A stretch of 64,000 bases of DNA from the human T2T-CHM13v2.0 reference genome, Homo sapiens. Under the pieces are notes generated by a model. It searched no databases. It was not told the origin of the DNA and saw only the letters and a program-made list of their open reading frames with translations. A program made the translations under genes and the position numbers. The DNA lies in assembly GCF_009914755.1 (NCBI RefSeq), contig NC_060934.1; one strand, given 5' to 3'. This document shows positions 30,741 through 36,000 of the stretch, in pieces. How positions within the stretch are numbered: the first letter of the stretch is position 1; every line of letters starts with the position of its first letter.

Positions 30741-31937
30741 GATATAATTACCATTACTACTGTTTAATAAAGATGTTTTAATTAAATGAAATGATACAAT
30801 TATACCTAGTTGACAGTATGTTTTAAAGATCAGCGATAAGGCCAGGCATGGCGGCTCATGCCTGAATCCCAGAACTTTGGGAAGCTGAGGTAGGATGACT
30901 GCTTGAGTCCAAGAGTTTGAGACCAGCCTGGGCAACATAGTGAGACTCCATCTCTATAAAAATTTAAAAAGTAGCCAGGCATGGTGGTGAACACCTGTGG
31001 TCCCAGCTACTCAGGAGGCTAAGGCCAAAGAATCGCTTGAGCCCAGGAGGTTGAGGCTGTAGTGAGCTGTGATTGTGCCACTGTACTCTAGCCTGGGCAA
31101 CAGAGAGAGACCCTGTCTACAAAAAAAAAAAAAAAATTAGAGATAACACAGTATTTCAGTGATTCTAAGATGCTCATTTTCTCACATTTCAATATCTCTG
31201 ACATTGGAATGCCACTTGTAATTCATGATTTATTACAACTATAATTGGAAGCATTTTTAAAATTGAAAAACAGATTTTTAAAACAAAGTAATTCTTATTG
31301 TGTTTTCAAGAAACTTCAACACAAAAGAAACTCAGGATTCAAATGAATAGTTTGGCTCATTTTATTCAATATTTAGATTTATAGAATATATGCAGATATT
31401 TCCAATGACTAATATTCGTGTTTAAGACATAAATTTTTAAAAGGGTAATTAAAGGTTATTTCTTATAATTTTCTACCTTCAGAAACACTTTTGTTTATAA
31501 AGAGGGGTTGGGTGCAGTGGCTCACGCCTGTAATCCCAACACTTTGGAAAGCCAAGGCAGGCAGATCACTTGAGGTCAGGAATTCAAGATCAGCCTGACC
31601 AACATGGTAAAACCCCATCTCTGCTAAAAATACAAAAAGTAGCCGGACATGGTGGTACATGCCTGTAATCCCAGCTACTCGAGGGGGCTGAGGCAGGAGA
31701 ATCACTTGAACCCTGGTGGCAGAGTTGGAGTAAGCCGAGATCATGCCACTTTACTCCAGCCTGGGTGTCAGAGCATAATCTCCTCTCAAAAAAATAAATA
31801 AATAAGAGGAGGGAGGAAAAGCTTCAATTGAGATTGCCCTAATAGTCTAATTTTAAATCTCTCAACTTGCTCAGGCTGGGCAGGTATGCAAACATAAAGG
31901 TTTTGAAGATGGAAAGGTCCTGAGAGATAGTAGACTA

Positions 31938-33029
31938 TGTTTTCACCTGCAATTGCCTTGACCTGAATGAATGCACTCCACTCTGGCCTTTCTTTCCTCT
32001 TAGCTCCTAAGGAATCCACAGATCCACTTTGGATTACCCTCTTCTAAGGCCTGCTCACACCCTTAACAGGACTTTTCATATGGGATCCCAAATGGATTCT
32101 CCCTCCCACCAACAGCTCTCATACTTGACCAGAGCTCTCATCTGTCCTCTATAAACATCCAAACATTCTTTGCCAAAACAAATGCTAAGAGACCAGACCA
32201 GTCTCAACACAGGAGCCAAGCAGCTCACCAGAACTTCTCTCAGGCTTGATTTCCTGGGGATGAGTTAAATACCTGCTTCCAGAAGTGCAGGAGATTCACA
32301 TCAAGCTCTATGAAGACAGTTTTATATGAGAAATCAGCAACTTTCCATCTTCCCTGACAGCTCTGTAAATTTGTCATAAAATGCATTCCCAAATTCATAG
32401 CAGATTAGCTACATTATGTATTACAATGCTAATGCAAGACTGAAATAGTTTAGAACACCACACAGCACTTATATACATATATATGAAGTTCCTGTTGTGA
32501 AAGGGGAATAAATATCATATTCATGACTAAAATAGGGATTCACCTCTGACAGAAAAGAATTTGCATAGAAGTAAAATCCTCACTTCAAAGATATCAACTC
32601 TGGCCTGGTGCAGTGGCTCATGCCTGTAATCCCAGCACTTTGGGAGGCTGAGGCAGGCAGATCACCTGAGGTCAGGAGTTTGAGACCAACTTGGCCAACG
32701 TGGTGAAACCCCGTCTCTACTAAAAATACAAAAAAAATAGCCAGGCATGGTGGTGGGTGCCTGGAATCCCAGCTGTTTGGGAGGCTGAGGCACGAGAATT
32801 GCTTGAACCTGGGAGGAGAAGGTTACAGTGAGCCAAGATCATGCCAACTCACTCCAGCCCAGGAGACAGAGCGAGACTCCATCTCAAAAAAAAAAAAAAA
32901 AGAAAAAAAAATCAGCTCTGCAAATCTTCATGTCCACTACTGTTATGTTTCCAATTCAAAGATCAAGTCTATATTCTACCACATTTTATTAAAATACTAC
33001 GCACTTACATTAATATGCTTATAACTAGC
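31938..33029 (+). repeat. Copy 1 of a ~1.1-kb local direct repeat (paired with 42320-43531)
   Basis: Near-identical text tgttttcacctgcaattgccttgacc ... atatgcttataactagc, including an internal Alu. Confidence 0.97.
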
Positions 33030-36000
33030 GGTGGTTCACGCCTGTAATCCCAACACTTTGGGAGGCCAAGGCAGGCAGATCACTTGAGGTTAGGAGTTTG
33101 AGACCAGCCTGGCCAACAGGGTAGAACCCCATCTATACTAAAAATACAAAAATTAGCCAGGCATGGTGGCACGTGCCTGGAATCTCAGCTACTAGGGAGG
33201 CTGAGGCAGGAGAATTGCTTGAACCCAGGAGATGGATGTTGCATTGAGCCGAGATCACACCATTGCACTCCAGCCTGGGCGAAGAAGCGAGACTTCACCT
33301 CAAAAACAAAAAAGGCCAGGCGCGGTGGCTCAAGCCTGTAATCTCAGCACTTTGGGAGGCCGAGGTGGGCAGATCACAAGGTCAGGAGATCGAGACCACC
33401 CTGGCTAACACAGTGAAACCCTGTCTCTACTAGAAATACAAAAAAAAAAAAAATTAGCTGTCCCAGCTACTCAGGAGACTGAGGCAGGAGAATCGCTTGA
33501 ACCCAGGAAGCAGAGGTTGCAGTAAAGCTGAGATCTGGCCACTGCACTCCAGCCTGGGCAACAGAGGGAGACTCTGTCTAAGAAAAAAAGAAAAAAGAGA
33601 TAGTAGACTATGTCTGCTACATAACAGGTATTCAGGTTATGATTGATGAATAAATGGATTGAAAGAATGGAAAAATCATTAGGGAGTTCAATATTTTTAA
33701 ATAAAATTCTTATAAAGTAGAGTAATTCTTTTATTCTTTTGCAATAATATTTATCTTTTTTTTGTTTTGTTTTGTTTTGTTTTTTTGAGATGGAGTCTCG
33801 CTCTGTCACCCAGGGTGGATTGCAGTGGTGCAATCTCAGCTCACTGTACCCTCCGCCTCCCAGGTGCACGCTATTCTACTGCCTGCCTCAGTCTCCCAAG
33901 TACCTGAGACTACAGATGTGTACCACCACACCTGGCTAATATTTGTATTTTTACTACAGAAGGGTTTCACTACGTTGGCCAGGATGGTCTTGAATTCCTG
34001 GACTTAAGTGATCCACCCTCCTCAGCCTCCCAAAGTGCTGGGATTACAGGCCTAAGCCATTGCATCCAGCCTAATTATCATTTATATTTGGTATTTTTAT
34101 TGTCATAAGGACACAACTAAAATAAAATGATTGTACCTGTTTGCATATATAATAAATCTATAATAAAAACATGTATATGATAAAATGTATACATAAAATC
34201 TATAAATACAGATAAAAAGATACCCTTTACTTTTTCTTTTTTTATTTTTATTTTTTATCTTCTTAATTTTTGGTGGCAAGAACAAAGATCTGCTTTACCT
34301 TTCATTTTTAATAGAGACAGGGTCTTGCTATGTTGCCCAGGCTAGTTTCGAACTCCTGGGTCAAGCAATCCTCCTGCCTGGGCCTCCCAAAGTGCTGGGA
34401 TTACAGTCATGAGCCACAGGTGCCCAGCCAAGATCCCCTTTACTTCTGAAAAGGATAAAAGTTGTCAGACGATAGCAATCCACCAAAAAAAGAAAAAAAA
34501 GAAAGTGGGAAATGATTTTTATCTGTGCAAGATTCATATTCCTCTCTTCCCAAGGATTACTTCATTAATAATAAATTTTCACTAGAACTTTTATACATAC
34601 TCATTGCAGAAATCATAAAGAAAAAAGTTTGACTTATTATACAAATGCCCAGAAATAACAAATTTTACCACTTTTTTTTTTTTTTTGAGACGGAGTCTTG
34701 CTCTGTCGCCCAGGCTGGAGTGCAGTGGCGTGATCTCCGCTCACTGCAAGCTCCGCCTCCCGGGTTCACGCCATTCTCCTGCCTCAGCCTCCGGAGTAGC
34801 TGGGACTACAGGCGCCCGCCACCATGCCCGGCTGATTTTTTTGTATTTTTAGTAGAAACGGGGTTTCACTGTGTTAGCCAGGATGGTCTCGATCTCCTGA
34901 CCTCGTGATCCGCCCGCCTCGGCCTCCCGAAGTGCTGGGATTACAGGCGTGAGACACCGCGCCTGGCCAAATTTTACCACGTTTTGTACATATTTTCAGC
35001 TAACACAAGACCACAGTCTGTATGTATAATCAAACTTTTTTTCTCACTTGAGATACCAAAGTATATCCTCACATGCCAATACACTTCTGTATCTATTGCC
35101 ACTTTCTTTTCTTTCTTTCTTTTTTTTGAGACAGAGTTTTGCTCTTGTTGCCCAGGCTGGAGTGCAATGGCACGATCTTGGCTCACTGCAACCTCTGCCT
35201 CCCAGGTTCAAGCGATTCTCCTGCCTCAGTCTTCGGAGTAGCTGAGATTACAGGCTCCCACCACCATGCCTAGCTAATTTTTGTATTTTTAGTAGAGACG
35301 GGGTTTCACCATGTTGGCCAAGCTGGTCTCGAACTTCTGACCTCAGGATATCCGCTTGCCTTGGTCTCCTAAAATGCTGGGTTTACAGGCGCGAGCCACC
35401 ACGCCTGGCCTCTACTGCCACTTTCAATGGTCACATATTATCATGCACTGACATTTATTCACAAAATCCATTCTATGGGTTCTCCTTAATACACTGCTTA
35501 AGCAATGCTGAGAAAAACAAATTACTTGTATATCTATTTCCTAAAGGCATTTTATTTCTTTTTCTTTTTGAAAGATAGGGTCTTGCTCTGTTGTCACTGA
35601 CATACCTCACTGCAGCCTAGAACTCCTGGGCTCAAGTGATGCTCCTGCCTCAGCCTTCCAAGTAGCTGAGACTATTAGAGTTGGGGGGGGGGGTCTCGCT
35701 ATAATGCCCAGGCTGGCCTTGAACTCCTGGCCTCAAGCAATCCTCCCGCCTCAGCCTCCCGAAGTGCTGTGATTACAGGCGCGAGCCACCGCGCCTGACG
35801 AATAACAGATTTTATAGAAATAATTTTTAACCCAGAAGTTGCTATATTATGGAAACTGCTTATCTCATTATGCACCTTTCCATAAGTGTATGACATTGTA
35901 TCTTAAATGTGTACATTAAAAATAAAACGCTGTACGTGCTTTTGTTCGTTAATTCACTTTAAAATTGTCACTTAAGTGCTCTCTAAGGGGATTTCGGGGG

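What the first reader, a model, noticed from the sequence alone, without database searches (positions are those of the whole stretch)
31923..33613. TSD-flanked composite insertion: Alu retrotransposition that captured ~1.1 kb of DNA from 10.4 kb away
Seen: an exact 18-bp direct repeat AGAGATAGTAGACTATGT at 31923-31940 and 33596-33613 brackets ~1.65 kb. This consists of a copy of intergenic 42320-43531 (31938-33029), an Alu missing its first ~8 nt (33029-33313), a second Alu (33314-33595) and an A-rich tail. The junctions show microhomology: TGT at the left end, GC at the copy/Alu join. Known: a TSD plus A-tail is the signature of L1-mediated target-primed reverse transcription. Inference: one TPRT event started on an Alu RNA and switched template to a nearby sequence (genomic DNA or a local transcript), giving a 5'-captured local duplication rather than an ordinary segmental duplication.
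Basis: partly seen in the sequence, partly recalled or inferred. Interest (0 to 1): 0.8.

Follow-up and report, generated by a model that had tools for sequence, protein, structure and literature searches.

The report
Old Alu pair, later 1.1-kb patch
An 18-base duplication in ANKRD26 intron 1 really does bracket two Alu elements plus a 1.1-kb copy of nearby DNA, but the Alus look several times older than the copy, so this is most likely two ordinary events and not one unusual one.

Summary
The exact 18-mer occurs only at 31923-31940 and 33596-33613. 31938-33029 copies 42320-43531. It is followed by a 5'-shortened Alu, a second Alu and an A-rich tail. Junction microhomologies are TGT and GC.

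New evidence:
- An ancient chr2 paralogue is colinear with the 42320 locus, so that copy is the parent.
- Six of six fetched ANKRD26-family paralogues carry a single 18-mer, so the 18-mer is a true target-site duplication.
- The two 1.1-kb copies differ by 2.5% (19/757), about 13 My.
- Both flanking Alus carry 10 and 14 private non-CpG changes where 2.3-2.4 are expected, and keep only 5/21 and 5/18 CpGs.
- No parent Alu exists elsewhere in the genome.

One TPRT event therefore needs later gene conversion across the whole segment. A simulation disfavours that about 10-26-fold.

Best reading (0.58): an old AluS insertion made the duplication, a second Alu entered its tail, and about 10 My ago a microhomology-joined templated patch filled a break at the Alu's 5' edge. 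The one-event reading keeps about 0.2. Primate orthologues, not available here, would decide. Interest is modest.

The parts
31923..31940 (.). left copy of the 18-bp target-site duplication
   Evidence: Exact repeat. Single-copy in 6/6 paralogous empty sites.
31938..31940 (.). TGT microhomology at the left junction, shared by the end of the duplication and parent bases 42320-42322
31941..32597 (+). left unique part of the 1.1-kb copy (matches parent 42323 to about 43100)
   Evidence: 13 substitutions in 657 bases. Genome-wide the only other relative is a 72% chr2 paralogue.
32598..32921 (+). old Alu with A-tail carried inside the copy (matches parent 43105-43410); it predates the duplication
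   Evidence: 10 private non-CpG changes shared by both copies, 3 and 2 unshared. Absent from the chr2 paralogue.
32922..33029 (+). right 108 bases of the copy, ending in GC microhomology (33028-33029)
   Evidence: 6 substitutions and 2 small indels. 2.1 substitutions expected at the left-part rate, P=0.02 post hoc.
33030..33313 (+). Alu 1, AluS-like (subfamily label recalled), lacking its first 8-10 nt, with tail AAAAACAAAAAA
   Evidence: best genomic match 88%, 10/226 private non-CpG changes, CpG intact 5/21.
33314..33595 (+). Alu 2, full 5' end, internal deletion at 33459|33460, tail AAGAAAAAAAGAAAAA (33580-33595)
   Evidence: best genomic match 85%, 14/215 private non-CpG changes, CpG intact 5/18.
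33596..33613 (.). right copy of the 18-bp target-site duplication
42320..43531 (+). parent segment in the ANKRD26-YME1L1 intergenic region. It includes a TA-rich expansion (42847-42973) absent from the copy and the older Alu (43105-43410).
   Evidence: The chr2 paralogue is colinear with this locus and extends 49 bases left of 42320.

Best explanation
Two or three separate events, not one.

(1) Roughly 30-40 My ago an AluS-type element (Alu 1) entered ANKRD26 intron 1 by L1-driven target-primed reverse transcription. This made the 18-bp duplication. A second Alu (Alu 2) then entered its A-tail; that step is inferred from the head-to-tail arrangement.

(2) About 10 My ago (95% range 6-18 My at an assumed 1e-9 per site per year) a break or stalled replication end arose at the boundary between the left duplication and Alu 1. 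It was repaired with a templated patch. The 3' end ...ACTATGT paired through TGT with the intergenic locus 10.4 kb away on the same strand. About 1.2 kb was copied (42323-43531). The new strand rejoined Alu 1 through GC, with loss of the Alu's first 8-10 nt.

Shown: the anatomy, which locus is the parent, the authenticity of the duplication, and the age gap. Inferred: the break and its repair pathway (microhomology-mediated template switch or SDSA from DNA, or a class-2 RNA-derived patch), and the order of Alu 1 and Alu 2.
For: Young copy. There are 19 substitutions in 757 unique aligned columns (2.5%). They polarise as 7 on the parent branch and 6 on the copy branch using the chr2 outgroup.

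Like-for-like clock. The Alu inside the copy has 10 private non-CpG changes shared by both copies and only 3 and 2 unshared. Alu 1 has 10/226 and Alu 2 has 14/215, where 2.4 and 2.3 are expected if they arrived with the copy (Poisson P = 2e-4 and 1e-7). With 3 extra changes allowed for source-gene differences, P = 0.048 and 0.001. CpGs intact are 5/21 and 5/18, the same as the median of the window's 47 Alus (0.24).

Spread of differences. They are even along the copy: variance/mean 1.17, p=0.31, longest identical run 132 bases.

Simulation. The observed summary has probability 0.37 under a young copy. It is 0.014-0.035 under an old copy with continuous gene conversion at 20-40 times the mutation rate. 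It is about 0 under conversion that needs 100-200 identical bases, and 0.000-0.002 with no conversion.

Literature. [quoted passage not shown]

No parent Alu. Best matches are 88%, 85% and 81% for Alu 1, Alu 2 and the dimer. The positive control, an Alu-only query, found its 96% paralogue first.

Junctions. The patch has no A-tail and no duplication of its own, has 3- and 2-base microhomologies, and comes with an 8-10 nt loss. These are the features of class-2 templated insertions (PMC5110952, section 9).
Against: The patch sits exactly between the intact 18-mer and the Alu, with no Alu bases left on its left side. For a random break this is a coincidence of roughly 0.5% (my estimate from element numbers, not computed). 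A one-event model gives it for free.

The last 108 bases next to Alu 1 are more diverged: 6 substitutions against 2.1 expected, P=0.02 post hoc. That could be an unconverted old edge.

The CpG comparison against the embedded Alu alone is weak: Fisher p = 0.14 and 0.15, from 4 of 6 retained.

The exact identity of the 18-mers is only about 0.08-0.30 probable for an old duplication. This applies equally to the one-event model.

No primate orthologue could be examined, so the order of events rests on a clock and a simple simulation of my own.
Confidence: 0.58

Rival explanations
1. One L1-mediated TPRT event about 30-40 My ago started on Alu RNA. It switched, at Alu base 9-11 through GC, to a local template (nascent RNA or DNA of 42320-43531) and was joined to the target through TGT. 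The two 1.1-kb copies were later homogenised by non-allelic gene conversion, so they look young.
For: A single 18-bp duplication and a single terminal A-tail enclose everything. All parts share one orientation. No Alu bases lie left of the copy. Microhomology is present at both joins, as at 5' junctions of truncated L1-mediated insertions and at template switches (passages of PMC11702581). Chimeric insertions with extra 5' sequence are documented for L1: 253 with small RNAs and 17 with unique RNAs (PMC13174262, sections 10 and 13). Continuous conversion at the published rate gives 43-49 expected differences, close to the 34 seen. The right 108 bases are more diverged.
Against: Without conversion the model is rejected. 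68-83 differences are expected against 34 seen (P(diffs<=34) = 0.000 in both runs), and the Alus carry 10 and 14 changes against 2.3-2.4 expected. With conversion, the even spread is unlikely: joint probability 0.014-0.035 against 0.37. The first 100 bases at the left edge show only 1 difference. Conversion that needs 100-200 identical bases cannot hold the copies together. Three templates in one event, or a separate Alu 2 insertion, are also needed. The nick site (CTCT/CA on the primed strand) does not fit the TTTT/A preference (motif as given in PMC5110952).
Confidence: 0.2
2. One young retro-insertion of RNA that already contained old Alus. This could be a longer transcript from a locus now lost. 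Or the parent locus once carried Alu 1 and Alu 2 after 43531, and a local transcript primed in the Alu 2 tail was inserted 10 kb away, after which the parent lost the Alus precisely.
For: It would reconcile a young copy, old-looking Alus and a perfectly identical duplication (P of 18/18 identity is 0.63 if young). Homology between the chr2 paralogue and chr10 stops at 43529-43536, the same place as the end of the copied segment, so something has happened at that spot.
Against: No parent for Alu 1, Alu 2 or the dimer exists in the genome: best 88%, 85% and 81%, with a working positive control. The parent locus shows no Alu or scar at 43531. A retro-insertion landing within 10 kb of its source by chance is about 1e-5 (my estimate). 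There is no splice signal at the join (reading).
Confidence: 0.05
3. Chance repeat or assembly artefact: the 18-mers and the copy are unrelated coincidences or a mis-join.
For: None found.
Against: 0 matches are expected in shuffles. Paralogous empty sites have the two flanks overlapping by exactly 17-18 bases. The copy has 34 substitutions and 6 indels against its parent, so it is not a collapsed or duplicated assembly segment.
Confidence: 0.01

Closest known systems
Class 2 templated sequence insertions (Onozawa and Aplan, PMC5110952; abstract and section 9 read)
   Same: A patch copied from elsewhere in the genome fills a break. It has no duplication and no poly(A) of its own. Its junctions show microhomology and a small deletion.
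   Different: The template here is only 10.4 kb away on the same strand, not at a distant locus. An RNA origin cannot be tested. The patch lies exactly at the 5' edge of an older Alu, so it borrows the look of a class 1 (L1-mediated) insertion.
Chimeric L1-mediated insertions by template switching or RNA joining (Law and Burns, PMC13174262, sections 10, 13, 18 read; Buzdin-type chimeric retrogenes recalled, not read)
   Same: Different sequences in one orientation sit inside one duplication with one terminal A-tail. The 3' element is 5'-truncated.
   Different: In those cases the parts arrive together in species alignments. Here the clock puts the parts about 4-5 fold apart in age. The 5' part is unspliced intergenic sequence with its own Alu, from 10 kb away. 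The 3' element is an Alu, not an L1.
Replication-based template switching (FoSTeS/MMBIR) and synthesis-dependent strand annealing (recalled, no paper read here)
   Same: 2-3 base microhomology at both joins. The template is nearby in cis and in direct orientation. About 1 kb was copied without loss at the donor.
   Different: Usually described for larger pathogenic rearrangements. No second switch or inversion is seen here.
Ordinary Alu insertion, and Alu insertion into the tail of another Alu
   Same: An 18-bp duplication, an A-rich tail at the 3' end, and a head-to-tail Alu pair.
   Different: 1.1 kb now separates the left duplication from the Alu. The Alu lacks 8-10 nt. The nick site does not fit the L1 endonuclease preference.

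Membership tests
L1-mediated (TPRT) Alu insertion | target-site duplication of about 7-20 bp, single-copy at the empty site | tested here: met
   Exact 18-bp repeat. 6 of 6 fetched paralogues have one 18-mer between the same flanks. About 20 further places in the lists have the flank matches overlapping by 17-18 bases (my reading of the coordinates).
L1-mediated (TPRT) Alu insertion | A-rich tail at the 3' end abutting the duplication | tested here: met
   AAGAAAAAAAGAAAAA at 33580-33595, directly before the right 18-mer.
L1-mediated (TPRT) Alu insertion | insertion at the L1 endonuclease preference (TTTT/A on the nicked strand) | tested here: not met
   The nicked strand reads ...ATCTCT/CAGG (complement of CCTG/AGAGAT). 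Motif as quoted in PMC5110952 and PMC2912911.
Chimeric retro-insertion made in one event (template switch) | all parts inside one duplication, one orientation, one terminal A-tail | tested here: met
Chimeric retro-insertion made in one event (template switch) | parts arrive at the same time | tested here: not met
   Tested by molecular clock only. Alu 1 has 10 and Alu 2 has 14 private changes against 2.3-2.4 expected. Old-plus-conversion is 10-26 fold less likely than a young copy. The phylogenetic test was not possible.
5' transduction | a source locus where the 5' sequence lies directly upstream of the element | tested here: not met
   No Alu follows 43531. No other copy of the segment exists except the 72% chr2 paralogue. 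No parent of the Alus was found.
Class 2 templated sequence insertion / microhomology-mediated patch | no own duplication and no poly(A); microhomology and microdeletion at the junctions | tested here: met
   The copy ends ...AACTAGC with no A run. TGT and GC are shared at the joins. 8-10 nt of Alu 1 are missing.
Class 2 templated sequence insertion / microhomology-mediated patch | patch derived from RNA | not testable with these tools
   The parent is unspliced intergenic DNA. No expression data were available.
Segmental duplication (at least 1 kb, at least 90% identity) | length and identity | tested here: met
   1,092 bases at 94.5-96.5% identity.

The most novel reading that the evidence does not exclude
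A single target-primed reverse transcription event on an Alu left the Alu RNA 8-10 nt before its end. It continued on chromatin-associated nucleic acid from 10 kb away (nascent RNA or DNA), creating a local 1.1-kb duplication inside one target-site duplication. The two copies were afterwards kept similar by gene conversion. This would be a retrotransposon-driven route to small local duplications around a promoter.
Probability: 0.2. Interest if true: 0.6.

Novelty: new member of a known kind. Interest (0 to 1): 0.3.

Why it matters
The case shows how a later templated patch at the edge of an old retroelement can mimic a one-step chimeric retrotransposition, and how a like-for-like clock can separate the two. 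That clock compares the Alu inside the copy with the Alus beside it. The patch also places 1.1 kb from 5.7-6.9 kb upstream of the ANKRD26 start site into intron 1, about 2.6 kb from exon 1. ANKRD26 regulatory mutations are recalled to cause thrombocytopenia. Whether the duplicated piece has regulatory activity is untested. If the one-event reading were right, it would add Alu-primed capture of local sequence to the known side products of L1 activity.

Tried and rejected
- Parent search for Alu 1, Alu 2 and the dimer in the whole genome: best 88%, 85% and 81%. The control worked.
- Third copies of the 1.1-kb segment: only a 72% chr2 paralogue.
- Whether 43532 onward is a transposon edge that could explain the right breakpoint: 43532-44015 has no genomic repeats, and an old L1-like repeat starts only near 44016.
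- Splicing at the copy/Alu join: no donor-like sequence at 43531 (reading).
- Secondary structure at the three breakpoints: z-scores 0.33-0.78, nothing.
- Rfam families across 31500-44100: none.
- Paralogues as time capsules to order the Alu and the patch: all are older than every Alu here (left flank at most 86% identical; the chr13 paralogue lacks all the Alus it spans in 31270-35931), so they cannot order the two.
- Primate orthologues: no tool holds them.
Smaller fetches followed.
- Supplementary tables of PMC13174262, which list chimeric insertions, were not opened. They might list this locus.
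Full report
**What is there**

The exact 18-mer AGAGATAGTAGACTATGT occurs only at 31923-31940 and 33596-33613. No further match appears at up to two mismatches, and none is expected by chance.

Between the two copies lie, all in plus orientation:
- A copy of 42320-43531. BLAST gives 31938-32481 = 42320-42857 at 96.5% and 32470-33029 = 42973-43531 at 94.5%. The parent has 127 extra TA-rich bases.
- An Alu that begins at the position matching base 9-11 of a full Alu and ends in AAAAACAAAAAA (33030-33313).
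- A second Alu with a complete 5' end, an internal deletion at 33459|33460, and the tail AAGAAAAAAAGAAAAA (33314-33595).

TGT is shared at the left join and GC at the right join. The copied segment carries its own older Alu (32598-32921 = 43105-43410).

**Which copy is the parent, and are there others**

The window's genome can be searched. The non-Alu parts of the segment have only one further relative, on contig 2 at about 130.76 Mb, at 72% identity.

That locus is colinear with the window from 35808-36042 (next to ANKRD26 exon 1), through 42271-43529, to 47595-48754 (YME1L1 last exon and intron). It is therefore an ancient paralogue of the whole ANKRD26-YME1L1 junction. It extends 49 bases left of 42320 and lacks the embedded Alu. 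So the 42320 locus is ancestral and the intron-1 copy is derived.

**The 18-mer is a true target-site duplication**

The unique flanks of the insertion have many paralogues in the ANKRD26-like gene family (40 matches listed in each). In about 20 of the listed places the left-flank and right-flank matches overlap by 17-18 bases (my reading of the coordinates).

I fetched six of these places. All six carry one 18-mer, differing from the window's at one or two bases, between ...gtcctg and ctgctacataac....

A seventh paralogue on contig 13 is colinear with 31270-35931. It lacks the whole composite and lacks the other Alus within that span. All these paralogues are older than the Alus: the left flank is at most 86% identical. 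They prove the empty site but cannot order the Alus and the 1.1-kb copy.

**The clock**

In the 757 aligned unique columns the two copies differ at 19 sites (2.5%; 16 are non-CpG). Using the chr2 outgroup, 7 fall on the parent branch and 6 on the copy branch. At an assumed 1e-9 substitutions per site per year (my assumption) this is 12.8 My (95% 7.3-18.5).

I aligned the window's 47 full-length Alus. For each one I counted private non-CpG changes, meaning a base seen in fewer than 8% of the others, with the 5' 12 and 3' 25 consensus positions left out.

| Element | Private non-CpG changes | CpG intact |
|---|---|---|
| Embedded Alu, intron-1 copy | 13/226 | 2/21 |
| Embedded Alu, parent copy | 12/225 | 2/21 |
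| Alu 1 | 10/226 | 5/21 |
| Alu 2 | 14/215 | 5/18 |
| Window median (47 Alus) | 4.4% | 0.24 |

Of the embedded Alu's changes, 10 are shared by both copies (before duplication), and only 3 and 2 are unshared (after duplication).

An Alu that arrived together with the copy should show about 2.3-2.4 changes. The Poisson probabilities of the observed counts are 2e-4 for Alu 1 and 1e-7 for Alu 2. With three extra changes allowed for source-gene differences they are 0.048 and 0.001.

The direct CpG comparison with the embedded Alu is weak: 4 of 6 retained, Fisher p = 0.14-0.15. The first, uncorrected counts (19 for Alu 1) were inflated by flank and tail columns, and I do not use them.

**Could the Alus have been old when inserted?**

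Only if they were copied from an existing locus. None exists. The best genomic match is 88% for Alu 1, 85% for Alu 2 and 81% for the dimer.

As a positive control, the embedded Alu queried alone found its 96% paralogue first, ahead of an 89% next-best match.

**Could gene conversion hide an old duplication?**

The differences are evenly spread: variance/mean 1.17 over ten 99-base bins, p=0.31, with a longest identical run of 132 bases.

I simulated 1,078-base duplicates and scored the probability of the observed summary: 24-44 differences, variance/mean at most 1.17, longest identical run at most 132.

| Scenario | Probability |
|---|---|
| Young copy, no conversion | 0.37 |
| Old copy (6.5-8% unconverted), continuous conversion at 20-40x the mutation rate, 250-base tracts | 0.014-0.035 |
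| Old copy, conversion needing 100-200 identical bases | about 0 |
| Old copy, no conversion | 0.000-0.002 |

The rate and tract length come from Harpak et al. (bioRxiv 10.1101/135152; I read the abstract and passages of sections 6 and 7). [quoted passage not shown] The simulation is a simple model of my own.

One observation points the other way. The last 108 bases next to Alu 1 have 6 substitutions and 2 indels, where 2.1 substitutions are expected (P=0.02, post hoc). The first 100 bases at the other edge have only 1 substitution.

**Most likely history**

An AluS-type element (label recalled from memory, no repeat annotation run) inserted by TPRT and made the 18-bp duplication. A second Alu entered its A-tail (inferred). 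About 10 My ago a break or stalled end at the duplication/Alu boundary was patched with a copy of the intergenic segment 10.4 kb away.

The 3' end ...ACTATGT paired through TGT, about 1.2 kb was synthesised, and the strand returned to the Alu through GC, removing 8-10 nt of the Alu.

The patch has no A-tail and no duplication of its own. These are the junction features of class 2 templated sequence insertions (PMC5110952, abstract and section 9) and of microhomology-mediated template switching (recalled). Whether the template was DNA or RNA cannot be told.

A possible reason for the exact position is that the two 18-mers invite strand slippage, which would release a nascent end just where the left 18-mer ends. 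This is speculation.

**The rival**

Related precedents exist:
- 253 L1 chimeras with small RNAs and 17 with unique RNAs, timed by species alignments (PMC13174262, sections 10 and 13).
- Template switches and templated insertions at experimental L1 insertion sites (passages of PMC11702581).
- 5'-truncated Alus with weak microhomology dependence (passages of PMC2912911).

The rival needs whole-segment conversion, which the data disfavour. I give it about 0.2, against 0.58 for two steps. Models with a lost parent get about 0.05.

**Unexplained**

- Homology between the chr2 paralogue and chr10 ends at 43529-43536, within a few bases of the right end of the copied segment. The chr2 locus continues with an L1-like fragment that matches window 46047-45938 on the minus strand.
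- The nick site does not fit the L1 endonuclease preference.
- There is no notable DNA structure at any breakpoint and no Rfam family in the region.

**Limits**

- No primate orthologues were available, so the decisive presence/absence test could not be run.
- Alu subfamily names, substitution rates and base-rate estimates are recalled or assumed.
- Supplementary tables of the papers were not opened.

**Verdict**

The composite is most likely an ordinary old Alu pair plus a later templated local duplication. It is a new member of known kinds, of modest interest.

Noticed in passing
window 35808-48754; L009 (G000 contig 2, 130756691-130765159): An ancient paralogue (about 72-77% identity) of the whole ANKRD26 exon-1 side, the intergenic region and the YME1L1 3' end lies on contig 2. 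It lacks the primate Alus and most of 43532-47594.
   Followed up: partly
window 43529-43536: Homology between chr2 and chr10 stops within a few bases of the right end (43531) of the segment copied into intron 1. The chr2 locus then carries an L1-like fragment. Whether this is coincidence or a fragile spot is unexplained.
   Followed up: partly
window 31803-31940 versus 33596-33717: Across the same ANKRD26-family paralogues (for example on contigs 18, 22, 24 and 9) the right flank of the insertion is 88-93% identical, but the left flank is only 77-80% identical. Conservation is uneven across the insertion site, and the cause was not examined.
   Followed up: no
window 31935 and 33608: Both copies of the 18-mer have C at position 13, where 6 of 6 fetched paralogues have A. 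The change therefore predates the duplication or arose in the ANKRD26 lineage.
   Followed up: no
window 42847-42973: The parent locus has a 127-base TA-rich expansion, including a tandem repeat of the preceding CACCACACAGCACTTATATA-type unit. It is absent from the intron-1 copy.
   Followed up: no
window about 44016-45077: An old L1-like repeat (65-75% identical to many genomic places) is interrupted by a minus-strand Alu at 44624-44911. 43532-44015 is single-copy.
   Followed up: partly
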